DNA of 64,000 nucleotides from Pseudomonadota bacterium (GTDB lineage: Bacteria > Pseudomonadota > Alphaproteobacteria > Caulobacterales > Hyphomonadaceae): the NCBI GenBank assembly GCA_039026555.1, contig JBCCMB010000001.1:5631-69630 (forward strand). The letters run 5' to 3'. Both the position numbers and the translations under genes were made by a program. The stretch's first letter is position 1, and each line of letters opens with the position of its first letter. Positions 25,614 to 55,135 of this stretch are shown one piece after another. The notes below the pieces were generated by a model. That model did no database searches, had not been told where the DNA came from, and saw nothing but the letters and a program-made list of their open reading frames with translations.

Positions 25614-25953
25614 GCAAGTAGGGGAACGCAGATAAGCCTGGCTCGAGAGGGTATGTGCGGCTATCGCGTCTTTGCGCCGTCGATCTTGTCTGCATGGTTT
25701 ACTTATAGGCGCCTGCGATTTGTTTTAACTACGATGCATTTAGCCGTAACGCTCCAGCTACTATCCAAACCGCGTTGGGGCGGGCTTCAACTATGCGAAG
25801 CCCGCCGCCGTCCCGGCTCGCAGGTCCGGCAAGACGGCGGCGGGGTCTTGACGGCGCGGATCCTACTCCGCGCCCGCTCATCATGCGCGGTCCTGGACGC
25901 ACTCCGGGCGCACCCGGCGGTCCCTTAGGATCGCCGGCTCCGGCCCATTTGTG

Positions 25954-26079
25954 GAGCGTGCTGGCCACACGGAAACCGACATTGTTGTTTCGGTTCGTGG
26001 TGGTGTTCCTGTTGCGGTTCGCCGAGCGAAGGTTCTGCGGATTGTTGTTCCAGGAACCACCGCGGAGAACACGACGCGA
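25954..26079 (-). repeat. DGR template repeat (TR), 126 nt
   Basis: Collinear with the terminal 126 nt of four FGE-domain genes. It is AAY-rich (reads NNNPQNLRSANRNRNTTTNRNNN). By hand alignment, all mismatches to VR1, VR3 and VR4 lie at its adenines. The 3' end (GGCCAGCACGCTCCAC) differs from the VR ends (GGCCAGGACGCTTTRA). Confidence 0.85.
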
Positions 26080-26263: not shown

Positions 26264-28648
26264 TCAAAGCGTCCTGGCCACACGGAAACCGACAAGGCTG
26301 CCTCGGTCCGCGGTGGTGCCCCTGAGGCGGTTCGCCGAGCGAAGGCTCTGCGGAATGTGGCTCCAGGAACCACCGCGGAGAACACGACGCGAACATTCTC
26401 CGATTGTCCAAGCAGAGCCGTTCGACGGACCCCCTGAATAACTGGCGTTCCAGCAATCTTGCGTCCATTCCCAGACATTGCCGATCATATCGTGAAGGCC
26501 AAAAGCGTTTGCCTGATATCTGCCAACCAGCGCTGTTTTTTTGCCTACGCCGTCGTCGCAAGTTGAAGTCGTCCAATTACTATCTTCTCGTTTCGCCGTG
26601 ATGTCGGCCGCATTCGAATACGCGCACCCCCCATTCCTATCGTTTCCCCAAGGATAGGCGCTCGTCGTCCCCGCACGCGCCGCATACTCCCATTCCGCCT
26701 CAGACAGAAGGCGATAGGTCTTACCCGTCTTGCGAGACAGCCAACCCGCATAGGCCTGAGCATCGTTCCAATCGACATTGATCACAGGACGCGATCCGCG
26801 ACCCCAGCCTTCATCCCCGCCTGTGCTCGCCGGCCCCGCATCATCGCACGTCCCGTCGGCGACGCATGCGCCCCATTCCGCCCAAGTCACCTCGTATTTG
26901 CCCACCGCGAACTGGTAGTCGATCCGCACAGTCCGGACCGGGCCTTCATCATCGTCGCGGCCTTCCTCCGACGACGGCGAGCCCATCACAAAACGGCCCG
27001 AGGGGATCACGACCATTTCGGGGCCTTGCCCGCCGCCCGAGAGCGCATCGCGGAACACCTGGCCGGGCGTTGAGGGGCGCTCTATCGCTTTGAGTTTCGC
27101 GCGCGCGGCGGCTGCGTTGGCGCCGGATGCGTGGGACGCTAAATACCGCTCATACCCAGCCTTGGTATCCGTGCGCTGCGCCAGCGCCCAGGCTTGCGCC
27201 TCCGCCTCCCGCGCCGCTTGCGCGCGTTGCTTCGCTGCGGCCGCCTCGGCTTCCGCTTTCAGGGCCGCCAGCCGCGTCCGCGCCCGCGCCGCATTCGGAC
27301 CGTTCGGATAGTCGGACAGGAAGCTCTCAATCGCACGGACGGTGTCGGTGCGTTCGGCGACCATCCACGCAGCGTTTTCAGAGATCTCAAATTCTCGCGC
27401 CGCGCGTTCGGCCCGGTCCGCAAACGCGGCGATGTCGTCCAACGCTCCCGTGGCCAGGTCCGGCGCCGTAAGGCCGGCGTCGCTCGCAAAGCTTGCGGCG
27501 GCGGCGATCGTGCCGCGTCCCGCTGCGCCGTCGACGCTGCTGGTGTAGAGGCCGAGACGCTTTAGCGCCGTCTGAACGCGCCGGATCGCTGACGCTCGCG
27601 CGGCGGGGGCGTCCGCAGAGGCCGCTAGCTCTTCGGTTCCGAGCGCAGTTGTTGATGTTTGCGAAGTTGACGACAGGCGATTAAGCGTTTCGAGCGCCTT
27701 GTCGATATTGTCCTTTAGCGTTTGGTCCGTCGTCTGCCGATCAAGCTGTTGCAGCAGCATCGCCGCTCTTTCCGACGACCTCGACGAGATTGGCGTATCA
27801 AGACGGCTGACGACGTTCGCCACGCCCAACTGCTCGTAGTAAACTTGGCTCTCAACACCCCATTCGACAAATTCCAGAATTGCGGATTCGTCCTCATCGC
27901 CATTGATGTTCTCGGCGATTTTTTCGCGCGCCCGCCTTCGAACAGCAGAAATATCAGACGTCAGATCAGAGATCAGCGCGGGGTCTAATCCAGCCACGGT
28001 TTCGCCGGCTGCGGTGGCTGTAGGTGCGCTCGTCGTCGTATCGCGCCAGCCGAAAGGGTCAAACGTCCAAAGGCCGCCGCCTAGACTGACCAAAAGTAGG
28101 GCGACAACAGCGGCGACAACACCGCCAGGACTCGCCTTCGTATCCGCCCCGGGACTACGACTTGGTTTGTCCGCCGGGACCTGTTGGCCGATGTTCAAGC
28201 CGCGGATCAAAACGCCGACATCATTGTCGAAACTGTCCGCGCGCAGCTTGACGCCGTGGCGCATGGAGAGTTCGCGGATGTCTTCGGGCAGCTCGTCCGC
28301 CTCCGGCACGGCGACGCCGTCCAGCAACACCGGGACGACGGGGATGTCGCGTTTCAACGCCGCCGCGATTTCCGCGCGCACGAAATCACGCGGATCGTCC
28401 AAGCGGCGCTTGCCGGTGTCGGGGTCGGCCGCGTTTAGCCAATTACGGCCGATCATGGCGAGGACCATGTCGCACTGGGCGACCGTCATATCGATCTGTT
28501 GCTTGAAGTTCAGCCCGACCGTCATGGAGTCCAGGTCGTAGAAAATGTCGACCTTGGGATCGTCGACTACCTTGGCCAACGCCTCATAAACCGACTTCGT
28601 CTGCCACTGGCTGTCGTCGCGCCTGTAAGAGATGAAGATCTTCGACAT
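26264..28648 (-). CDS. TIR - TM - PG-binding-like/helical repeats - FGE-sulfatase (C-type lectin fold) protein; DGR target 1
   Basis: Start at ATG 28648: MSKIFISYRRDDS (TIR). TM segment VVAAVVALLLVSLGGGLWTF. RRVQTALKRLGLYTSSVDGAAG is PG_binding_1-like. The C-terminal FGE domain has MVVIPSGRFVMGS, VNVDWNDAQAY, LLSEAEWEYAARAG, GLHDMIGNVWEW and RVLRGGSW. Confidence 0.85.
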   Translation of the reverse strand: MSKIFISYRRDDSQWQTKSVYEALAKVVDDPKVDIFYDLDSMTVGLNFKQQIDMTVAQCDMVLAMIGRNWLNAADPDTGKRRLDDPRDFVRAEIAAALKRDIPVVPVLLDGVAVPEADELPEDIRELSMRHGVKLRADSFDNDVGVLIRGLNIGQQVPADKPSRSPGADTKASPGGVVAAVVALLLVSLGGGLWTFDPFGWRDTTTSAPTATAAGETVAGLDPALISDLTSDISAVRRRAREKIAENINGDEDESAILEFVEWGVESQVYYEQLGVANVVSRLDTPISSRSSERAAMLLQQLDRQTTDQTLKDNIDKALETLNRLSSTSQTSTTALGTEELAASADAPAARASAIRRVQTALKRLGLYTSSVDGAAGRGTIAAAASFASDAGLTAPDLATGALDDIAAFADRAERAAREFEISENAAWMVAERTDTVRAIESFLSDYPNGPNAARARTRLAALKAEAEAAAAKQRAQAAREAEAQAWALAQRTDTKAGYERYLASHASGANAAAARAKLKAIERPSTPGQVFRDALSGGGQGPEMVVIPSGRFVMGSPSSEEGRDDDEGPVRTVRIDYQFAVGKYEVTWAEWGACVADGTCDDAGPASTGGDEGWGRGSRPVINVDWNDAQAYAGWLSRKTGKTYRLLSEAEWEYAARAGTTSAYPWGNDRNGGCAYSNAADITAKREDSNWTTSTCDDGVGKKTALVGRYQANAFGLHDMIGNVWEWTQDCWNASYSGGPSNGSAWTIGECSRRVLRGGSWSHIPQSLRSANRLRGTTADRGSLVGFRVARTL
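26267..26392 (-). repeat. DGR variable repeat VR1
   Basis: Last 42 codons of the gene. I count 15 mismatches to the TR, all at TR adenines, for example AAC AAC AAT to AGC CAC ATT. Confidence 0.85.
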
Positions 28649-28702
28649 ACGTCGTCCCCGCCGAACTCTAGAGAACACGCTAGTCCATCCATGAACGCAA
28701 TG

Positions 28703-29773
28703 TCACCCTAGAATGCGTTTGCCGTACTTTCGTTCGCCTAGAACTGCATTTCGCAGCTTGCGCGTGTGGGCGAAGTTGGCATGAGCCTCCCAGGCCTCGA
28801 TGCGGACGTGAGCGTCAGCCTCTGTCGTGGTTCCGGCGCTCAATTGGTCGCGGAGGCTGCGCAGGCGGTGACGGAAGCGCCGGATAGTCGCCTCGGGCAA
28901 GCGACGTACGCCTTTAGGCGCCAAGACATAGCACAGGAACTCCGCGGGCTCCGCTGTCGGCGCGACCCAAGTCTTCTGCGTATGAAGCTTTAACCGTCGC
29001 CCCTCCAGGAACCGAGCGATCCGATCCCGCCAATCTGCAAGGATTGCAGGATCGTCGTGAAACAATGCGAAATCGTCGACATATCGCACATAGGGCGCGC
29101 GGAGCACTTCAGTACAAAAATGGTCCAGCGGGTCTAGATAGAGATTGGCGAAAAATTGGCTGGTGAGATTTCCGATCGGCAGGCCGCGCCGGCGGGCGAC
29201 TGGCGCGAATAGATCGTCGCCTGGGAAATGTAGCTCCACCAGCTCTTGGCGGTTTGAAGCGTCGATGATGCAGTCCAGTAGGCCGAGCGTGCGCTCGCAT
29301 GCGAGACGCCGACGCAAATCGCGCTTGAGGATGGCGTGGTCGATGGCTGGGAAATAACGAAAGATGTCGCAGCGCAAGACGTAAGCGCAGCGATCACGAT
29401 AGCGCTCATACGCCTCCACCGCCCGGTGTGCGCCCTTGCCCCGCCGGTTGGCGAAGGTGTGAGCGATGAAGCCGCGTTCGAAAATTGGTTCTACGACGGC
29501 GCATACGGCGTGGTGAACCACGCGGTCGCGAAACGGGGCCGCGGAAACGATACGGTGCTTGGGATCGAAAAGTTCGATCTTCACATACCGGCCGGGGCGG
29601 TACTCGCCGCTTAACAGCGCGCGCTCAAGCGCCAAGCATTCCTTCTCTCGATCAGCCAGGAAAGCGGCGGCGCCAGGTTTCGTCTTTTTGCCGAGAGCTG
29701 CGCGGCGCGTCGCCGATACAAGCGCGCTGAAATTAGCGATCTGCGGACAAAGATTACGTTCACGCTTGGGCAT
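28703..29773 (-). CDS. DGR-type reverse transcriptase
   Basis: DPKHRIVSAAPFRDRVVHHAV, RRGLPIGNLTSQFFANLYL (the DGR hallmark I/LGxxxSQ) and YVRYVDDFALF (YxDD). 356 aa. No maturase or endonuclease domain and no intron-like flanks. Confidence 0.9.
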   Translation of the reverse strand: MPKRERNLCPQIANFSALVSATRRAALGKKTKPGAAAFLADREKECLALERALLSGEYRPGRYVKIELFDPKHRIVSAAPFRDRVVHHAVCAVVEPIFERGFIAHTFANRRGKGAHRAVEAYERYRDRCAYVLRCDIFRYFPAIDHAILKRDLRRRLACERTLGLLDCIIDASNRQELVELHFPGDDLFAPVARRRGLPIGNLTSQFFANLYLDPLDHFCTEVLRAPYVRYVDDFALFHDDPAILADWRDRIARFLEGRRLKLHTQKTWVAPTAEPAEFLCYVLAPKGVRRLPEATIRRFRHRLRSLRDQLSAGTTTEADAHVRIEAWEAHANFAHTRKLRNAVLGERKYGKRILG

Positions 29774-30143
29774 GACGCGCGGACGACGCTTTTAGCCAAC
29801 CTCCGATCAGACGTCCGACCTTGTCAATTTCACGAGCAGCGAATTCATAGCGGCGCGGGTCTAAATGGCGGAGATCATAGGCCAAGCGGAAGAGGTGGCG
29901 CAGTTTCTCCAGGCCGAGATTGGCGGCTTTCAGAGCTGGCGCGCGCTCGCGCGAATAGGTCGCGTCGATCAGGCGTTCCAGCACGTCTAGCGCGGTTCCC
30001 TGAATACGGTCGCCGAGGAGGAATTTCTGGCTGCGTGGAAACTTTTCGACCGCGGGGATCAGCCAGCGTAGGAAGCCGTTCATCGCTTCGAGCGCAGGAC
30101 CGATTTTCCGTTGCCCGGATTCATATTTCAGCGCCCCAAACAT
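29760..30143 (-). CDS. avd: Avd-like accessory variability determinant (four-helix-bundle protein)
   Basis: 127 aa, basic and helical (FPRSQKFLLGDRIQGTALDVLERLIDA...). Its 3' end overlaps the RT start by 14 nt. Confidence 0.75.
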   Translation of the reverse strand: MFGALKYESGQRKIGPALEAMNGFLRWLIPAVEKFPRSQKFLLGDRIQGTALDVLERLIDATYSRERAPALKAANLGLEKLRHLFRLAYDLRHLDPRRYEFAAREIDKVGRLIGGWLKASSARHAQA

Positions 30144-30221: not shown

Positions 30222-30551
30222 TCAGGAGATTTCCATCACATCGCCGTCGCCAGATAGTAAGGCTCTTATCGCATCGGCGTGCAGCCGGAGCGACAGAGCG
30301 ATCTGTTGCGTGGCTGCGTTTCCGAGCTTTACCCAGACCAGCCTGGGCGGCGCGCCGCGGGTCTCTACCAGCGCTCGCATGTGGTCGTCTTTCGACAAGA
30401 GGGACAGACCGTTAGCACGGGCGTAGCTCCAGACTACGACGTCGTCCGCGCGCTCCAATCCGCACGCCGTGACATGACGACAGTCCGGAAACTCCACCTC
30501 AAGTATCCCTCCAAGGCGCCAGGAGAGATTTTCGTCGATCAAGAAGGTCAA
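30222..30551 (-). CDS. DUF5615 family PIN-like putative toxin
   Basis: MTFLIDENLS...VVVWSYARANGLSLLSKDDH. 4-nt overlap with the upstream DUF433 gene. Confidence 0.6.
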   Translation of the reverse strand: MTFLIDENLSWRLGGILEVEFPDCRHVTACGLERADDVVVWSYARANGLSLLSKDDHMRALVETRGAPPRLVWVKLGNAATQQIALSLRLHADAIRALLSGDGDVMEIS

Positions 30552-30772
30552 GCAGCGCTGTCCGCCAGTCGCCGCTCCCTGTCGGCCGCATAGGCGAGCG
30601 CCGCGCGAATATCCGCTATTTCGATTTCAGGAAAATCTCCGACGATTTCTTCCGGCGTCATTCCGGCCGAAAGATATTCAAGGATATCGTAGACCGTAAT
30701 CCGCAAATTCCGGATGCAGGGCTTGCCTGAGCGTTTGTCCGCTTCGAAGGTAATAACGTCTCGCCAAGACAT
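30548..30772 (-). CDS. DUF433 domain putative antitoxin
   Basis: GKPCIRNLRITVYDILEYLSAGMTPEEIVGDFPEIEIADIRAALAYA is the DUF433 signature. Confidence 0.75.
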   Translation of the reverse strand: MSWRDVITFEADKRSGKPCIRNLRITVYDILEYLSAGMTPEEIVGDFPEIEIADIRAALAYAADRERRLADSAA

Positions 30773-30849: not shown

Positions 30850-30901
30850 TTCAAAAAAATCGAACCGGCTTCGCCGGTACAAGGCGCGGGCTTGCGCCCG
30901 C
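30850..30901 (-). terminator. Post-VR2 module: GNRA-loop hairpin plus terminator
   Basis: Coding sense: GCGGGC-GCAA-GCCCGC (30886-30901), then ACCGGCGAAGCCGGT (30864-30878) followed by TCGATTTTTTT. Confidence 0.6.
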
Positions 30902-30918
30902 TATTAAGGAAAAAGGGC

Positions 30919-33858
30919 TTAAAGCGTCCTGGCCACACGGAAACCGACAAGGTTGAACCGGTCGCCTGTGTCGTTCCTGTCGCGGAACGCCGAGCGGAGG
31001 AGCTGCGGATCGTTGAGCCAGGAACCGCCGCGGAGAACACGACGCGAGCAGTCACCGGCCGTGTGCGGAGCACCGTCGGGAGGCTGAGAAGCAAGCGTGT
31101 CACGATAGCAATCCTCCACCCATTCCCAGACATTGCCATGCATGTCGTAAACGCCGAATGCGTTAGGCTTAAAGCTGCCGATGGGTGCGGTCTCCAAGTA
31201 ATTGCCTTCGCAATCCACGACATCCCACGACAAATTGTATTTTTGTTGTGTGTCGGGATTTGCGAGGTTGGCGTAGGTGCATATCTCTGCGGCGTCGTCC
31301 CCCCAGGAATACGCCGTTTGCGTCCCCGCCCTAGCGGCATATTCCCATTCGGCTTCCGTTAACAGGCGATAGGGGCCGCCGCCCGCGTCCTTCGAAATCA
31401 TCCAATTAAGCCAGCGCACATACCCCTGCGCGTCGTTCCAGTTCAGATTGATGGCGGGATAGGTTCCCGTCCCGAAGCCTGCATCGCTGAGCGGCGCGCA
31501 GCCGATTATTGCTTCGCCATCCTCGGCCGCTAACAAGGCCGCTTGATCTGTGAAGGCGACGCATCGCGCCCATTCCTGATGAGTGATCTCGAACTGGCCG
31601 ACGGCGAAACGTTGGATCTCGATCTCTTTCTGCGGCCCCTCATCGCGAAAGCGGCCGGTTTCGTCGTCAGGTGATCCCATGACGAAACTGCCTGCGGGAA
31701 TAACGACCATTTCCGGGCATTGGGCCTCGGCGGCGCACTCTCGGAATGTCGCGCGAGCGTCAAGATCGGCTAAATCCTGAGATGACAGCGCGTAGCGCGC
31801 ATAATCGAAACGCTGCACCCATTCTCGCTTCAGTTCGAACTCAAACGCGTATCCCATACTGCCAAGCACGACCAAAAGGCCCAACGCGCCGACCGTTGCG
31901 CCAAGAAGCCGCCGGCGAGTCTTAGACCGGTTCTCCGACTTCTGCGCAGCAGACAAATAGTTCTGCTCGACCTCCCCAAGCTGGGGGCCATAGCGGGGAT
32001 GGTCCGCCAGCGCCGAGGCCGCCTTCAGCCGTTCGCCGAAATGGGTGAGGTATTCGCCTCTACGCTCCTGGCGCGCCCAGATCGCGGCGGCCTGTTTCAA
32101 CCCGCGCAAGGCTTCCAGCCGGGCTTTTTCGGGCTCCAGCCAAGCCTCCAGGCGCGGCCATTTGCGGAACAAGGCTTCATGCGCGACTTCGACGGTCCCG
32201 CCTTCGTCTCCGCTTTCCTTACGCACCACCAGCCGCCAGCGGTCGAAGCGCTCCAACAACTCCCGCTCTTCCGGCCCGAACGCGCGCCACGCCGCCACGC
32301 GCCGGATCGCTTCGCCGTCGTCATTCACATCCGCCAGCGGCGGCACGAAGACGGCTGCGCCGAGCTTTGTCTGGTGCGCCTTCGCCCCGCCTGCAGGCAG
32401 GGCTGCGTCGCGCTGTTCCGGATCGATCCCGCACAAAGCGCGCTCGGCCGCGTCCTCGATCAGGCCCGAAAGCCCCCCCATGGAGGCGTAGTCCGCATGG
32501 GCGAGCTTGCCCGACACGGCGAACTGGTCCCACAACCTTTGCAGCGCGAAGGCGAGCAGCGGCAGCGCATCCTTGCCCGGCGCATCCTCCATCAGCGCGT
32601 CGGTGAGCGCGGGATCCACCTCCACGCCATAGCGCGCCGCCGGGTCCTCGGCGACGTCGTCGAAGCGGAAGACGGGCAGCGTGCGCAAATCATATCCGCG
32701 CGCCTCCAACCCCTGAAAACGCGGATGCGCCTGCAGCTCCGGAAAGCTGTCTGTCCGGATGGTGAAGGCGAGCCGGATTGGCGAGGCCGCCTCCATAGCG
32801 GCGCGCAGATAATCAGCGAGCGCCTGGCCGTTCTCCCCGTCGGCCCGGGCGATCTCCTCCGCCTGGTCGACGCTGATGAGGAGGGTCGCGCCCGGGCGAT
32901 TGGCGCGCGTGCGCAGGCGGGCGGCTTGATCCTCCAGTGTTGCAACTAGGGCGGCGCGCCCGTCCTCCGTCAGCTCGGCCTTGTCGTCGCGCGGGGCCTG
33001 GCGCCAAGCCTCCAGCAGCGTTCGCTTCAGCGCGCCATGGGCTTCGCGCGTTCCGAAATCCGCCAGCGTCCCAGTGATCGCCTCCGCGAAGTTAAGCAGA
33101 GGGTCCGCCCCCGGCCGGAAGGCGCGCAAGGGCAGCCAGGCCGGCGCTTCTCGCCGCAAACGCGGAATGATCCCAGCCTTCAAGAGCGAGGATTTCCCGG
33201 CGCCAGACGCGCCGAGAATCACCAGGGGACGTTTGTCCGCGGCCGCCCGCATGGCGCGTAATTCTTCAAGCGCTTCGGCGATCTCCCGCGAGCGGCCGAA
33301 GAACAGCGCGGCGTCCGCATCGTCATCGCCAAAACTCTGCAGCCCTGGAAAGGGCGAGGGCCGCGCTGCGCGGTCTATCTCGAACGCCGCTGGATCGAGG
33401 CCCACAGCCGACAGCGCCCCCGCCTCGCGTAGGCCCCGTTTCAGCGTCTCAGCGCGGTCTTCGTCGCGAGCGAGGCTCAAGCCCTCAGGCGTCAGGAAGG
33501 GCGTCAGATCCAGCCCCTGGGCCTCGGCGCGCACGCGGCCCAGCTCGGCGCGCTGTTTCTCGTCCAGCGTCGCCTCTTCGCCCAGCAGGAAAAGCGGAAT
33601 AATCCGCTTGCCCATATACCAGGCGGCCTTGAACTCGGACGGGCATTCGCCTGAGGCGAGCCAATTGGGCGTTACCAGGCACAAGACCACGCGGCAGGCG
33701 CCCGCGTTCGCTCTCAGCGCATCGGCCCACGCTTCGCCGCCGGAAATGCTCGAATGGTCGATAAAAAGATCGGTAAAGCCTTCGGCTCTCAGCCAGGCCT
33801 CAAGCCGGCTGGCCAAATCGTCATCCCGACTGGAATGGGAAATGAAAATCGTCGCCAC
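30919..33858 (-). CDS. TIR - STAND P-loop NTPase - TM - FGE-sulfatase (C-type lectin fold) protein; DGR target 2
   Basis: MATIFISHSSRDDD (TIR). FFGRSREI...RPLVILGASGAGKSSLLKAG (Walker A) and TLLISVDQAEE (Walker B), followed by a long helical region. TM segment LLGATVGALGLLVVLGSMGYAF preceded by KTRRR. The FGE domain has MVVIPAGSFVMGS, INLNWNDAQGY, LLTEAEWEYAARAG and GVYDMHGNVWEW. Confidence 0.85.
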   Translation of the reverse strand: MATIFISHSSRDDDLASRLEAWLRAEGFTDLFIDHSSISGGEAWADALRANAGACRVVLCLVTPNWLASGECPSEFKAAWYMGKRIIPLFLLGEEATLDEKQRAELGRVRAEAQGLDLTPFLTPEGLSLARDEDRAETLKRGLREAGALSAVGLDPAAFEIDRAARPSPFPGLQSFGDDDADAALFFGRSREIAEALEELRAMRAAADKRPLVILGASGAGKSSLLKAGIIPRLRREAPAWLPLRAFRPGADPLLNFAEAITGTLADFGTREAHGALKRTLLEAWRQAPRDDKAELTEDGRAALVATLEDQAARLRTRANRPGATLLISVDQAEEIARADGENGQALADYLRAAMEAASPIRLAFTIRTDSFPELQAHPRFQGLEARGYDLRTLPVFRFDDVAEDPAARYGVEVDPALTDALMEDAPGKDALPLLAFALQRLWDQFAVSGKLAHADYASMGGLSGLIEDAAERALCGIDPEQRDAALPAGGAKAHQTKLGAAVFVPPLADVNDDGEAIRRVAAWRAFGPEERELLERFDRWRLVVRKESGDEGGTVEVAHEALFRKWPRLEAWLEPEKARLEALRGLKQAAAIWARQERRGEYLTHFGERLKAASALADHPRYGPQLGEVEQNYLSAAQKSENRSKTRRRLLGATVGALGLLVVLGSMGYAFEFELKREWVQRFDYARYALSSQDLADLDARATFRECAAEAQCPEMVVIPAGSFVMGSPDDETGRFRDEGPQKEIEIQRFAVGQFEITHQEWARCVAFTDQAALLAAEDGEAIIGCAPLSDAGFGTGTYPAINLNWNDAQGYVRWLNWMISKDAGGGPYRLLTEAEWEYAARAGTQTAYSWGDDAAEICTYANLANPDTQQKYNLSWDVVDCEGNYLETAPIGSFKPNAFGVYDMHGNVWEWVEDCYRDTLASQPPDGAPHTAGDCSRRVLRGGSWLNDPQLLRSAFRDRNDTGDRFNLVGFRVARTL
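30922..31047 (-). repeat. DGR variable repeat VR2 (divergent)
   Basis: Same length and flanks as the other VRs. By my count ~16 mismatches lie at TR adenines and 6 at non-adenine positions (GGT to GGC, CTT to CTC, and within ACC ACC ACG to GAC ACA GGC). Confidence 0.65.
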
Positions 33859-44339: not shown

Positions 44340-45704
44340 GTGGGATGGCTTCTTAGAGCTTTGGTCTGGTCTGTGGCGCTTGTTTGCTGCGCAGGGTTGG
44401 TCGGATGGTTTCTCATCGCCGGGCATAAACATGTTGCGGGTCTAGACGGGCCGGGGCGGCAATTAGAGACCGCGGTGATCTCCGCTGATGGTAGATACGT
44501 CGCTATTTTGCTCAATGATGGGGCGGCGGATGTTCAAACGATTGAGGGGGAGACGCTCGGGCTTATTCGCGGGCACGACGCGCCGTTGGCGGCGGCGCAT
44601 TTTTCGCCCGACGGCGAGATACTGATCACGATTGACGACGCGGGCAGTGTCCGCCGAACGCGGCTGGAGGGGCTCTTTTTTCGAGAAAGGGGGCATGGCG
44701 CCGATATGTCGGCGGCGGTCGAGCAGGCGGTTTGGGGCGATGCGTTGGCCGCACCGGCGGCGCTATTATGGGAGACAAGCGCGATCCATGCGCCCTGGAA
44801 GGCGTCGTCGCAGATTATGGATGCAGACACGCGCGCGCCTGTTTTGCCAAAGGGCGCAGTCCCGCCGCCGAGGAGCATGTTTCGAGATTGCGCAGATTGC
44901 CCGGAAATGCTGGTTGTTCCGCCGGGCGCATTCCTTATGGGCTCTCCTGAAGATGAAGAGGGGCGTGATCCCGATGAGGGCCCGCAGCGAGACGTGCGGA
45001 TCGATTATCCTTTCGCCGCGGCGCGGTTTGAGACGACGCTCGCGGAGTTTCAACGCTTCATGAAAGAGACTGGCCATGCGCCGGCGGGCGGGTGCGTCGC
45101 CGATTCCAACGGCGATGGGTTGTTGTCCGATGAGCCTGAGGCTAATTGGTCAAACACGGGGTTTGAACAAAGCGACGCCCAGCCCGCAGCCTGCGTTTCG
45201 TGGAACGACGCGCAGGCCTATGTGCATTGGCTGTCGCGCAAAACGGGCGAGACGTATCGTCTGCTTTCGGAAGCGGAATGGGAGTATGCGGCTCGGGCTG
45301 GGACGACGAGCGCCTATTTCTGGGGCTCAAGCGCAGATGCCGGCTGCGCTTATATGAACGGAGCGGACGCGACGGCGAAGCGCTCCTATCCTGGCTGGAC
45401 GACCGTGAGTTGCGATGACGGCTATTTGAATACGTCGCCCGTAGGCTCGTTCAACGCGAATGCATTTGGTCTTTACGACATGACGGGCAATGTTTCGGAG
45501 TGGACTGAGGATTGCTGGAATGAGAGCTATTCCGGTGCGCCGATAAATGGCTCGGCGTGGATAAGCGGCGAGTGCTCGCGTCGTGTTCTCCGCGGTGGTT
45601 CCTGGAGCGGCTATCCGCGGAGCCTTCGCTCGGCGCTCCGCGGCTGGAACTCCACCTCGGACCGGTACGACCATGTCGGTTTCCGTGTGGCCAGGACGCT
45701 TTAA
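44340..45704 (+). CDS. N-terminal TM anchor - short WD40-like segment - FGE-sulfatase (C-type lectin fold) protein; DGR target 3
   Basis: GTG start. TM segment LVWSVALVCCAGLVGWFLIAG. The FGE domain has MLVVPPGAFLMGS, VSWNDAQAYVHWLSRKTGETYRLLSEAEWEYAARAG, GLYDMTGNVSEW and RVLRGGSW. Confidence 0.8.
   Translation: MGWLLRALVWSVALVCCAGLVGWFLIAGHKHVAGLDGPGRQLETAVISADGRYVAILLNDGAADVQTIEGETLGLIRGHDAPLAAAHFSPDGEILITIDDAGSVRRTRLEGLFFRERGHGADMSAAVEQAVWGDALAAPAALLWETSAIHAPWKASSQIMDADTRAPVLPKGAVPPPRSMFRDCADCPEMLVVPPGAFLMGSPEDEEGRDPDEGPQRDVRIDYPFAAARFETTLAEFQRFMKETGHAPAGGCVADSNGDGLLSDEPEANWSNTGFEQSDAQPAACVSWNDAQAYVHWLSRKTGETYRLLSEAEWEYAARAGTTSAYFWGSSADAGCAYMNGADATAKRSYPGWTTVSCDDGYLNTSPVGSFNANAFGLYDMTGNVSEWTEDCWNESYSGAPINGSAWISGECSRRVLRGGSWSGYPRSLRSALRGWNSTSDRYDHVGFRVARTL
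45576..45701 (+). repeat. DGR variable repeat VR3
   Basis: I count 18 mismatches to the TR, all at TR adenines. It is on the opposite strand and ~19.5 kb from the TR. Confidence 0.85.
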
Positions 45705-54400: not shown

Positions 54401-55135
54401 CCCGAGATGGTCGTGATTCCGTCGGGTCGGTTCCTGATGGGTTCGCCGGCGTCTGAGGCCGCGCGCGACGATGATGAAGGCCCGGTTCGGACGGTTCGGA
54501 TCGATTATCAGTTTGCGGTCGGCAAGTATGAAGTGACCTGGGCGGAATGGGAGGCGTGCGTCGCCGACGGCGCGTGCGATGACGCCGGTCCGGTCGGCGC
54601 AGACGGGGATGAAGGCTGGGGGCGCGGGTCGCGTCCTGTGATCAATGTGGATTGGAACGATGCGCAGGCCTATGTGCGCTGGCTGTCGCGCAAAACGGGC
54701 AAGACGTATCGTCTGCTGTCTGAAGCGGAATGGGAGTATGCGGCTCGCGGGGTGACGACCACAGAAGCCGTCTCGACGCGTTTCAGCTGGGGAGACGAGG
54801 ATCCGGTTTGCGAACGCGGCGCGCCGAACGGGGCGGTGTTTAGTCGATGCGAAGGCGGGGGAACGCGGCCCGTTGGGTTTTCGGCTCCGAACGCCTTTGG
54901 TCTTTACGATATGCACGGCAATGTTTGGGAATGGGTGGAGGATTGCTGGAATGACAGCTATTCTGGCGCGCCATCGAACGGCTCAGCTTGGACGCGCGGC
55001 GGATGTTCGCGTCGTGTTCTCCGCGGTGGTTCCTGGGGCAACGATCCGCAGCTCCTTCGCTCGGCGGACCGCCTCAGGAGCACCACCGCGAACCGACTCG
55101 ACTATGTCGGTTTCCGTGTGGCCAGGACGCTTTAA
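48413..55135 (+). CDS. Giant 2240-aa multidomain protein: N-terminal domain - TM - WD40 repeats - TM - large unassigned region - ~7 TM helices - propeller-like region - caspase-like (C14) domain - FGE-sulfatase domain; DGR target 4
   Basis: Six 42-aa WD40 repeats (TRILSWSxDxTVRLWDAQTGDQIG). Hydrophobic helices at about aa 115, 650 and 1130-1400. Caspase-like RRLALVIGNAEYEQLPDLKNPLNDA...VYFGGQG...NYLIPTD...FVLDTCRND. The FGE domain has MVVIPSGRFLMGS...RVLRGGSW. Confidence 0.85.
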   Translation: MADGASAAEFEDEEVARLLGDELERLFDRLDEAGLLVGPRERSAAYAIAFQWLGGTRAPPARASEAMWRLRPMLAPVLARTQNDRAVFFHVFDTNYEPQPINPPDEPDPPLKGWPWRRIVLGIAATIMLSGLASVVYHRTQNEADVVVVEDGPSGVAKIEPIQTDGDAPVATERRAAPLADQTANDFLNRIRDAATAIDGDVYRYGLAPTLEEVAKELIDDSRSLRNATPADGGGVALSSQTTILAGGVLSGAAFSNDETRILSWSSDNTVRLWDAQTGDQIGPSMQHNFIVRGAVFSKDDTRILSWSVDNTVRLWDAQTGDQIGPSMQHEDAVGGAAFSNDETRILSWSDDATVRLWNAQTGNQIGTLMGHGRDVYGAAFSKDETRILSWSRDATVRLWDAQTGDQIGPSLQHEHVVLGAAFSKDETRILSWSDDATVRLWDANTGDQIGRPMVHKGRVSGAALSKDESRILTWSEDGRISSWSDPGASLDAEWSADAYARRLSDLTGLPGGAPLSIFANNGALWARLAHALSRMEQPGRETSLSQLRADAAKSLEDVQPSRVDRIAEKLRALDAPPTDRAALFDAVFALDEAAASDAPSIDQNIGFGPASDVLRAAAIAGLDAARYGDPPWLNLKPPARPAASPAPAWLWPLSVLIPLAFAFWVASSLALKRAYLRRRAPRVPPLHTKFVSEAGRNVAYQAGLFQRAAQQLLTRTPRASAAIDIPATVSATLAEGGEIIAPVFKDARLRPEYLVLIEANAAGDQEARRLRRMAERLEDIVDLDVFYYQTDPGELESEDGANRITIEQAQSRYPDHRLIILGTGGGFLDAVDLSLRPPAQKLFYWERRALLTPIPLAEWSKEDYALAKALEMPIGRATPEGLLTLAELLGLEGAEAGTEPNPSGDGLARPLPDLFRNRSQRFLFNAPPDQATIADLLRELRNYLDPSAFDWFASLAVYPNVQWDLTLLLGVKLPRAPGEDFATNPLYDERRLAAITQLPWLRSGRMPNWLRRTLISKLSPERREEIKAVLDELLENARPKNKHEVDAIELSIRRDKPKDTTRTDRLLDDEVLLDFLASGQREDFALARFSRFAELFDRGFWDRIGGPEGVAGAAALAFSLTAFVVTPRAADGAVVTGAYAPLWLLGVGGLLVFAFWKPDIAAARLGAAFERAAPGALALFLATLGPLAAAYVSARSGVDPLSIVATSNTTSFWIWGAYIAQFGLLVGGLWVSRSICTRFGLRIYVAASLPDWAELSIKAAGLGAFALAITALAGNVPGLAEFSRSPLVDPDQLDASAMLWLGGCLAVFLLGWLAAQFAPDMQTIRAASAGRSAKPALFAIVARALAALVPVVASLAAYWHVSLTSSRSDLAMDETVFRPALTAISPDGETLAAVDIAGRLVVSHANAAAPYRADPTQLSDARAPFTALAVGGEGEAVIAFADADGRVFEATPYRDAVAPVVDPSENSGRARSDGAPAQLAFGPNAQLWTAIETAEVGVRVITAGRAWNDAEQSGPPQALIAVSGGRAALATLDGRIRLVTPTSDGLAVQLIGASGSLAPSRQLSFDPDTMTLRAGLIDGEIWEANLVDSGASFEFVGRANAMALGPAPLYTTSSEISPFVGPATPSGRRLALVIGNAEYEQLPDLKNPLNDARLISESLESLGFEVSRLQNASRNEMLQAVRQHAQNVAAAGRNSVSFVYFGGQGVEIDGQNYLIPTDLSAHEPATVRSDSLLLNDVISEIDTVGPAASLFVLDTCRNDPFSGQRGSIGQGFAPANAPTNTFIAFAVEPGGIALDSLDARDNNSPYTSTLAETLLIPGLSVQDAFAEVRRKVTAATSGEQVPWISDRLASEFCFAGCEVQTPEPAAIPSALPPRLYIQIASEAQREDALRVREALSPLDVDVPEFEVRSASMPDRGEFRYFRRSEEGLARETYNALPDLDAGGAAFVYVSGYEDSEDIRDNHFELWLPGPTMLEDDFQPGFEFRDVIEGAPEIATPEMVVIPSGRFLMGSPASEAARDDDEGPVRTVRIDYQFAVGKYEVTWAEWEACVADGACDDAGPVGADGDEGWGRGSRPVINVDWNDAQAYVRWLSRKTGKTYRLLSEAEWEYAARGVTTTEAVSTRFSWGDEDPVCERGAPNGAVFSRCEGGGTRPVGFSAPNAFGLYDMHGNVWEWVEDCWNDSYSGAPSNGSAWTRGGCSRRVLRGGSWGNDPQLLRSADRLRSTTANRLDYVGFRVARTL
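49150..49900 (+). repeat. Tandem 126-bp in-frame repeats encoding WD40 blades
   Basis: Period 126 nt (units start at 49166, 49292, 49418 and so on). Units 1 and 3 share an identical 45-nt string, GGCGCGGCGTTCTCAAATGATGAAACACGCATCCTCTCATGGAGC. The sixth unit is degenerate. Confidence 0.85.
55007..55132 (+). repeat. DGR variable repeat VR4
   Basis: I count 14 mismatches to the TR, all at TR adenines. It is on the opposite strand and ~29 kb from the TR. Confidence 0.85.

What the first reader, a model, noticed from the sequence alone, without database searches (positions are those of the whole stretch)
30922..31047. VR2 breaks the adenine-only rule: decaying target or a second unseen TR
VR2, at the end of the TIR-STAND-FGE gene, has the same length, flanks and downstream hairpin as the others. 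Besides ~16 A-site changes I find 6 differences at non-adenine TR positions: GGT to GGC, CTT to CTC, and four within ACC ACC ACG versus GAC ACA GGC. Three explanations fit. VR2 may no longer be refreshed by this TR and be drifting. It may be templated by another TR outside this window. Or the TR itself changed after the last homing event into VR2.
Basis: seen in the sequence. Interest (0 to 1): 0.6.

Follow-up and report, generated by a model that had tools for sequence, protein, structure and literature searches.

The report
Out-of-date DGR target keeps old template
One of five protein tips rewritten by a mutagenic retroelement still carries an older version of the template, so it records how the template itself has changed; this is a known kind of irregularity, here with its direction worked out.

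Summary
VR2 (30919-31047, minus strand, end of the TIR-nSTAND1-FGE gene) differs from the only template repeat (TR, 25951-26079) at 16 adenines and at 6 non-adenine sites. VR1, VR3 and VR4 have no non-adenine difference. A fifth target on another contig (VR5) has three.

Seventy distinct TRs of related elements show which side changed. At the two synonymous T/C sites nearly all relatives have C, as VR2 does, so the window's TR holds the rare state. The four clustered differences lie in a 9-base block that is the most variable part of TRs across the family. The closest relative with a fully recovered cassette of the same layout has the same first two codons there as VR2.

VR2 also shares lineage-specific bases with this TR, and its open frame, arms and homing tail are intact. 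It is therefore best read as a stale copy of an earlier TR allele, not a decaying target. The assembly holds one RT and one TR.

Non-adenine differences confined to one of several targets are already documented, so this is ordinary in kind. Two details are modestly interesting: the direction of change could be inferred, and the cassette-adjacent target is the stale one.

The parts
30919..31047 (-). VR2 with its stop codon, the last 129 bases of the TIR-nSTAND1-FGE gene. It has 16 adenine-site and 6 non-adenine differences to the TR.
30919..33858 (-). Target gene T2, 979 aa, with TIR, nSTAND1 NTPase and FGE-sulfatase (C-type-lectin-like) domains. The open frame is intact. Its orthologue sits directly upstream of avd-RT in L014 and L066; in L015 it is present but another FGE-type target lies between it and avd.
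30852..30918 (-). VR2 tail: a T-rich spacer, the hairpin GCGGGC-GCAA-GCCCGC, then the terminator-like hairpin CCGGC-GAA-GCCGG followed by a T run. It is about 83% identical to the VR1 tail.
   Evidence: (D4)
30222..30772 (-). A DUF433 gene (30548-30772) and a DUF5615 gene (30222-30551) lying between the VR2 tail and avd. tblastn found no match to them in the related cassettes, where the gap is 120-180 bases.
29760..30143 (-). avd accessory gene, 127 aa, matching bAvd PF22296.
28703..29773 (-). DGR reverse transcriptase, 356 aa, with the motifs IGNLTSQ and YVDD. It is the only RT in the assembly.
26264..28678 (-). Target gene T1 (TIR-FGE) ending in VR1 (26264-26392). VR1 has 15 adenine and 0 non-adenine differences.
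25951..26079 (-). Template repeat with 29 adenines in the 119-base core. It carries the rare T at index 21 and index 51, and ACC ACC ACG in the variable block.
45576..45704 (+). VR3 at the end of FGE gene 44340-45704. It has 18 adenine and 0 non-adenine differences.
55007..55135 (+). VR4 at the end of the 2240-aa WD40-caspase-FGE gene. It has 14 adenine and 0 non-adenine differences.

Best explanation
VR2 is a genuine target of this DGR, but it was last fully rewritten from an earlier allele of the template repeat. The Avd-RT complex copies TR RNA faithfully at U, C and G and randomly at A. The cDNA then replaces any VR that carries the IMH-like end and hairpin tail. A substitution fixed in the untranslated TR is therefore passed to each target at that target's next homing event. 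Since VR2's last rewrite, the TR acquired C>T at index 21 and index 51. Both are silent in the targets. The TR also acquired a new version of a 3-codon block: GAC/AAC ACA GGC became ACC ACC ACG. This may have happened by stepwise substitution or by a single recombination with a related element. VR1, VR3 and VR4 were rewritten afterwards and match the TR perfectly. VR5 was rewritten after the block and index-51 changes but keeps C at index 21. Either its rewrite came before the index-21 change, or its 5' junction lay downstream of that site. What is shown: the mismatch pattern, the direction of change at sites 21 and 51, the family-wide variability of the block, the single RT and TR, and the intact gene and tail. 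What is inferred: the order of events, and that VR2 is now rewritten rarely or not at all. Why VR2 is spared, whether by chance or by selection for its present specificity, is unknown.
For: (1) Pattern: one search gives 6 non-adenine differences in VR2 against 0 in VR1, VR3 and VR4, with p = 2e-4.
(2) Direction: among 70 distinct TRs of relatives (RT 60-79% identical), column 21 is C in 65 and T in 3. Column 51 is C in 46, G in 22 and T in 2. Column 84 is C in 39 and G in 20. VR2 has the common base and the window TR the rare one. Every close relative's VR also has C at both sites. VR2 and VR5 share C at 21. One C>T change in the TR is simpler than two parallel T>C changes in separate VRs.
(3) The four clustered sites lie in columns 76-84, where almost every TR in the family differs. 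The TR of L066, the closest relative whose T2-avd-RT-T1-TR cassette is fully recovered, reads GAC ACA TCG, matching VR2's GAC ACA. L037 and L090 read GAC ACC GGG.
(4) VR2 shares this lineage's own bases T9, T99, G100 and T101 with the TR. It therefore was written by this TR lineage and was not imported from a distant element.
(5) VR2 is not decaying. It has a 979-aa open frame with end-to-end domain matches, a 5' arm that differs from the TR only at index 21 and an unchanged 3' end, and both tail hairpins.
(6) In relatives, internal non-adenine mismatches are usually private VR changes away from the family consensus. That is the opposite direction to VR2.
(7) T2-type targets can be rewritten. 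Five assemblies of the L066-type orthologue differ, apart from the called start residue, only in the last 32 residues.
(8) RT error cannot give six changes. bRT-Avd misincorporation at U, C and G is 0.5%, 0.3% and 1.6%, at or near the detection baseline (PMC7826257).
Against: There are no reads and no strain closer than 77-84% protein identity. The inference therefore rests on distant outgroups. C at the two silent third-codon positions is also the preferred base in a GC-rich genome, so T>C changes within VR2 would look 'ancestral' too. In the 9-base block the family has no clear consensus: at columns 81 and 83 the TR's base is commoner than VR2's. Changes within VR2 cannot be ruled out there. 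Six TR changes without one rewrite of VR2 implies a long interval or a single recombination event, and neither is shown. No sequence feature explains why VR2 was spared while targets 15-29 kb away were not.
Confidence: 0.6

Rival explanations
1. This is a mixed history. The two silent sites reflect TR change, but the four clustered differences (Thr-Thr-Thr to Asp-Thr-Gly) arose within VR2 itself. They could be ordinary mutation, selection for a binding specificity, or a local multi-base event, in a target that is no longer rewritten.
For: The block is the least constrained part of the repeat family-wide, so changes there are tolerated in a VR as well as in a TR. At columns 81 and 83 the TR's base is commoner among relatives than VR2's. 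Private VR changes do occur in relatives and in VR5, at G89C.
Against: All four changes are transversions packed into 8 bases (p about 0.009), while the rest of VR2 and its arms carry no private change. VR2's GAC ACA equals the L066 TR, and related TR alleles read GAC ACC GGG. The 11-mer across the block has no other copy in the genome that could serve as a conversion donor.
Confidence: 0.17
2. VR2 is written by a different TR that is missing from this assembly, or that belongs to a co-assembled sister strain. In the second case the contig would join one strain's VR2 to another strain's TR.
For: The assembly has 217 contigs and looks metagenome-derived. DGR repeats are hard to assemble. In multi-DGR genomes a perfect match at non-adenine sites is the accepted way to assign a VR to a TR (PMC10907252), and VR2 fails that test. 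Earlier notes from this scan report elements elsewhere with libraries of alternative TRs (unchecked).
Against: There is one RT by tblastn and by profile search, and one TR-like A-rich copy by low-stringency blastn. The weak extra hits are chance matches. Estimated completeness is 99.9%. VR2 shares this TR's lineage-specific bases, so any other TR would be a very close allele.
Confidence: 0.15
3. This is non-canonical mutagenesis. The RT or the cDNA integration step introduced the six non-adenine changes during an ordinary homing event from the present TR.
For: Wu et al. (PMC5758913) found non-A-to-N substitutions in 23% of DGRs, often in only one of several targets, and suggested an extra mutagenic capability. 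One L066-type variant has a T>G at column 82 in an actively diversified VR.
Against: Measured error at U, C and G is about 1% or less, so six events in 90 bases is expected in fewer than 1 in 10,000 cDNAs. The same RT produced three clean VRs. Random errors would not restore the family's common base at columns 21, 51 and 84.
Confidence: 0.05

Closest known systems
Multi-target DGRs with non-A-to-N differences in only one target (survey of Wu et al. 2018, NAR, PMC5758913; example ANKO01000117.1_3531_4562)
   Same: One TR serves several targets. One target has several non-adenine differences while the others have only A-to-N differences. Remote and inverted targets are present.
   Different: The survey left the cause open, listing RT infidelity, integration errors or unrelated mutation. 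Here outgroup TRs assign the change at two sites, and probably more, to the TR rather than the VR. A second target (VR5) shows an intermediate state.
DGR-diversified STAND/TIR/caspase conflict-system sensors (Kaur et al. 2020, eLife; Thiohalocapsa PB-PSB1 DGRs, Doré et al. 2024, PMC10907252)
   Same: FGE-type C-terminal sensor domains on TIR, STAND and caspase proteins are diversified in trans by one RT. VR-to-TR assignment uses a perfect match at non-adenine sites. Some targets are not currently diversified.
   Different: [quoted passage not shown] Here the cassette-adjacent target fails that match while the remote targets pass it.
Bordetella phage BPP-1 DGR (mtd-avd-TR-brt), the prototype
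   Same: It has an Avd plus RT, adenine-specific mutagenesis at about half of the TR adenines, an IMH-like VR end and a downstream GC hairpin.
   Different: The gene order here is target-avd-RT-target-TR. There are five targets, the element is chromosomal on an ICE rather than phage-borne, and the tail has two hairpins.

Membership tests
Diversity-generating retroelement (DGR) | Reverse transcriptase of the DGR clade with the [I/V/L]GxxxSQ motif and a YxDD catalytic site | tested here: met
   RVT_1 match at E = 2e-14. IGNLTSQ and YVDD are read directly in the translation. It is 60-79% identical to RTs that sit beside TR/VR pairs in more than 100 loci.
Diversity-generating retroelement (DGR) | Avd accessory protein next to the RT | tested here: met
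   The 127-aa ORF at 29760-30143 matches bAvd PF22296 at E = 3e-17.
Diversity-generating retroelement (DGR) | TR/VR pair whose differences fall on TR adenines | tested here: met
   VR1, VR3 and VR4 show 15, 18 and 14 differences, all at adenines.
Diversity-generating retroelement (DGR) | IMH-like VR end that differs from the TR end, plus a downstream GC-rich hairpin | tested here: met
   VRs read CAGGACGCTTT where the TR reads CAGCACGCTCC. Hairpins are predicted in the VR1, VR2 and VR3 tails; the VR4 tail's fold is no better than shuffled sequence.
Current target of the present TR (VR2 specifically) | Identity to the TR at every non-adenine position | tested here: not met
   Six non-adenine differences in 90 sites.
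Current target of the present TR (VR2 specifically) | Variation between cells or strains confined to adenine-templated sites | not testable with these tools
VR2's protein has no other cluster member, and no relative exceeds 84% identity.
Decaying or pseudogenised DGR target | Frame disruption, or substitutions spread over the arms, IMH and tail | tested here: not met
   The 979-aa frame is intact with full domain matches. The only arm difference is index 21, where VR2 holds the family's common base, and the tail is intact. For contrast, L014 has a truncated TR, and its two VRs differ in the arms and one has lost its stop codon.

The most novel reading that the evidence does not exclude
The five VRs form a dated record of the template's own evolution. 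VR2 is the oldest layer, VR5 is intermediate, and VR1, VR3 and VR4 are current. The record shows that the TR's non-adenine scaffold is itself replaced over time, especially one 3-codon block that differs in almost every related element. That shifts the whole repertoire of all targets at once. It also shows that targets of one DGR are rewritten at very unequal rates, and here the cassette-adjacent target is the slowest.
Probability: 0.45. Interest if true: 0.45.

Novelty: new member of a known kind. Interest (0 to 1): 0.3.

Why it matters
Non-adenine TR/VR differences are usually filtered out, or read as RT infidelity or as dead targets. This locus shows that they can instead mark changes in the template. 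Comparing several targets of one element with outgroup TRs gives the direction of change and a relative order of homing events. That is useful for annotating multi-target DGRs and for judging which sensors of a conflict system are still being varied. It does not reveal a new mechanism.

Tried and rejected
- Gapped realignment of the 4-site block, done by hand, did not reduce the non-adenine mismatches; no systematic alignment search was run.
- A second RT was sought with tblastn and the PF00078 profile on the whole assembly. Only the window's RT was found.
- A second TR was sought with blastn at word size 7 and E up to 10. There are six copies only: the TR and five VRs. The weak hits on C106 and C58 are chance matches in unrelated frames.
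- A conversion donor was sought with the 11-mer across the block (ACACAGGCGAC). It occurs nowhere else in the genome or in any fetched locus; its 9-mer core (GACACAGGC) occurs elsewhere only in unrelated contexts.
- Closer strains were sought in four ways: RT against genome contigs and metagenome contigs (best 79% and 76%), T2 against the 5.8-billion-protein set (best full-length 77%, partial 83-84%), 60 relatives by DNA, and a 30-base pattern against viral contigs (no hits).
- The DUF433/DUF5615 insertion was considered as a cause of VR2's staleness. It lies beyond the conserved tail, and remote targets are rewritten normally, so there is no support for it.

Full report
**What is there.** The window carries one diversity-generating retroelement on the minus strand.
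- Target gene T2 (30919-33858) has TIR, nSTAND1 and FGE-type domains and ends in VR2.
- A DUF433/DUF5615 gene pair lies at 30222-30772.
- avd is at 29760-30143 and the reverse transcriptase at 28703-29773.
- Target gene T1 (26264-28678, TIR-FGE) ends in VR1.
- The template repeat (TR) is at 25951-26079.
- Two further FGE-type targets lie on the plus strand: VR3 (45576-45704) and VR4 (55007-55135).

It lies at C5:50414-50542, at the end of a 684-aa TIR-FGE gene, and has the same tail.

All copies align without gaps.

| Target | Adenine-site differences (of 29) | Non-adenine differences |
|---|---|---|
| VR1 | 15 | 0 |
| VR2 | 16 | 6 |
| VR3 | 18 | 0 |
| VR4 | 14 | 0 |
| VR5 | 18 | 3 |

- Positions below use a 129-base index that starts at TCGCG.
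- VR2's six non-adenine sites are T21C (GGT>GGC), T51C (CTT>CTC), C77A, C81A, C83G and G84C. The last four turn ACC ACC ACG into GAC ACA GGC.
- VR5's three are T21C, shared with VR2, plus G89C and T105C.
- Six of 90 sites against 0 of 270 gives Fisher p = 2e-4.
- Four of six hits within 8 bases has p of about 0.009.
- VR2's 5' arm differs from the TR only at index 21. Its 31-base 3' end is identical to the other VRs'.
- Its tail keeps both hairpins, GCGGGC-GCAA-GCCCGC and CCGGC-GAA-GCCGG followed by a T run.

**Which side changed.** No close strain is available.
- The best RT relatives are 79% identical in genomes and 76% in metagenomes.
- The best T2 relatives are 77% over the full length and 83-84% for partial proteins.

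I therefore used the family as an outgroup. I collected TR-like and VR-like segments from 121 related loci and aligned 70 distinct TRs.

| Column | Relatives' TRs (n = 70) | VR2 | Window TR |
|---|---|---|---|
| 21 | C 65, T 3 | C | T |
| 51 | C 46, G 22, T 2 | C | T |
| 84 | C 39, G 20 | C | G |

- Every VR of the closest relatives (L014, L015, L016, L017, L066, L135, L136) also has C at columns 21 and 51.
- VR2 and VR5 both have C at 21. One C>T change in the TR, later copied into VR1, VR3 and VR4, is simpler than parallel T>C changes in two separate genes.
- Both sites are silent in the targets, and the TR itself is not translated. C>T drift in the TR is therefore plausible.
- One caveat applies. 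C is also the preferred third-position base in this GC-rich genome, so a change within VR2 would mimic the ancestral state.

**The four-site cluster.** Columns 76-84 are the most variable part of TRs across the family; nearly every element has its own version.
- The TR of L066 reads GAC ACA TCG, matching VR2's first two codons.
- L066 is the closest relative whose T2-avd-RT-T1-TR cassette is fully recovered. L014 and L015 have slightly closer RTs, but L014's TR is truncated and L015's lies beyond the contig end.
- L037 and L090 read GAC ACC GGG. L044 and L055 read ACC ACC ACG, like the window TR.

Both versions are therefore natural TR alleles. The direction of change in this block cannot be fixed from the outgroup. 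The 11-mer across the block occurs nowhere else in the genome, so there is no donor for gene conversion.

**VR2 belongs to this TR lineage and is not decaying.**
- VR2 shares with the TR and the other VRs several bases that are rare in the family: T9, T99, G100 and T101.
- T2 is a full-length open frame with end-to-end domain matches.
- T2, avd and RT lie directly adjacent in L014 and L066, at 75-84% protein identity. L015 also carries a T2 orthologue (69%), but a different FGE-type target lies next to its avd. VR2 thus sits in the conserved cassette-adjacent position, not in a recently acquired gene.
- In relatives, internal non-adenine mismatches are uncommon. Where they occur they are mostly private VR changes away from the family consensus, which is the opposite direction to VR2.
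- L014 shows what real decay looks like. Its TR is truncated after 26 bases. Its two VRs differ in the conserved arms, and one has lost its stop codon.

**Other explanations.**
- *A second template.* One RT was found by tblastn and by the PF00078 profile. One A-rich TR copy was found by low-stringency blastn, and the weak extra hits are chance matches. Estimated completeness is 99.9%. A missing TR allele, or a contig that mixes two strains, remains possible.
- *RT infidelity.* bRT-Avd misincorporates at U, C and G at about 0.5%, 0.3% and 1.6%, which is at or near the detection baseline, against 52% at A (PMC7826257). Six errors in one 90-base tract are not credible. Random errors would also not restore the family's common bases.

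**Mechanism proposed.** Non-adenine TR positions are copied faithfully, so any substitution fixed in the TR reaches each target at that target's next homing event. The five targets then form layers.
1. Bases shared by the TR and all five VRs are the oldest layer.
2. T51 and the ACC ACC ACG block are in the TR and in VR1, VR3, VR4 and VR5, but not in VR2.
3. T21 is in the TR and in VR1, VR3 and VR4 only.

VR2 was therefore last fully rewritten before the second layer. VR5 was rewritten before the third layer, or its 5' junction lay downstream of index 21.

The TR changes may have been stepwise, or a single recombination with a related element. The cassette sits on a conjugative element, and T1 is much less conserved than T2, avd and RT. 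Neither route is shown.

Why VR2 was spared is unknown. Its recognition elements look intact, and T2-type targets are rewritten in a relative. Five assemblies of the L066-type orthologue differ, apart from the called start residue, only within the last 32 of 1006 residues.

**Comparison with what is known.** Wu et al. found non-A-to-N substitutions in 23% of DGRs. They noted that targets of one element often differ in this respect, with one case of seven such differences in one target and none in the other (PMC5758913). Doré et al. assign VRs to TRs by a perfect match at non-adenine sites and describe targets that are no longer varied (PMC10907252). Earlier notes from this scan also describe stale remote targets elsewhere (unchecked). 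The phenomenon is therefore known. Two things are added here: the direction of change at two sites, and probably more, and the fact that the stale target is the one next to the cassette while targets 15-29 kb away on the other strand are current.

**Limits.** The conclusion rests on distant outgroups and on parsimony.

Noticed in passing
genome contig C5:48488-50542 (+), outside the window: This is a fifth DGR target, a 684-aa TIR-FGE gene with the same tail. Its VR has 18 adenine and 3 non-adenine differences. One of them, G89C, turns an Arg codon (CGA, G invariant in 70 of 70 related TRs) into Pro. That looks like a private damaging change or an RT error.
   Followed up: partly
window 30222-30772 (-): A DUF433/DUF5615 gene pair, resembling a toxin-antitoxin module, lies between the VR2 tail and avd. 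tblastn found no match to it in the related cassettes L014, L015, L017, L066 and L067, where the gap between VR and avd is only 120-180 bases.
   Followed up: partly
TR index 76-84 = window 25996-26004 (-), and the TRs of L014-L134: A 3-codon block of the TR differs in nearly every one of 70 related elements, while the rest of the non-adenine scaffold is conserved. This suggests fast turnover of, or selection on, the fixed residues inside the variable loop.
   Followed up: partly
L014:10451-10476: In the relative with the closest RT (79%), the TR is cut off after 26 bases. Its two VRs differ in the conserved arms, and the T2 orthologue's stop codon reads TCA. This appears to be a dead DGR whose targets are drifting.
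   Followed up: partly
L066:6475-9462 and proteins P0005, P0121-P0124: Apart from the called start residue, orthologues of T2 from five assemblies are identical over about 975 residues and differ at 0-12 positions confined to the last 32 residues. This is direct evidence of ongoing diversification in that relative. One variant also has a non-adenine T>G at column 82.
   Followed up: partly
window 26264-28678 versus L014, L066, L017: T1, the target between the RT and the TR, is only about 50-60% identical to its positional counterparts, while T2, avd and RT are 75-84% identical. The module downstream of the RT seems to be exchanged or to evolve faster.
   Followed up: no
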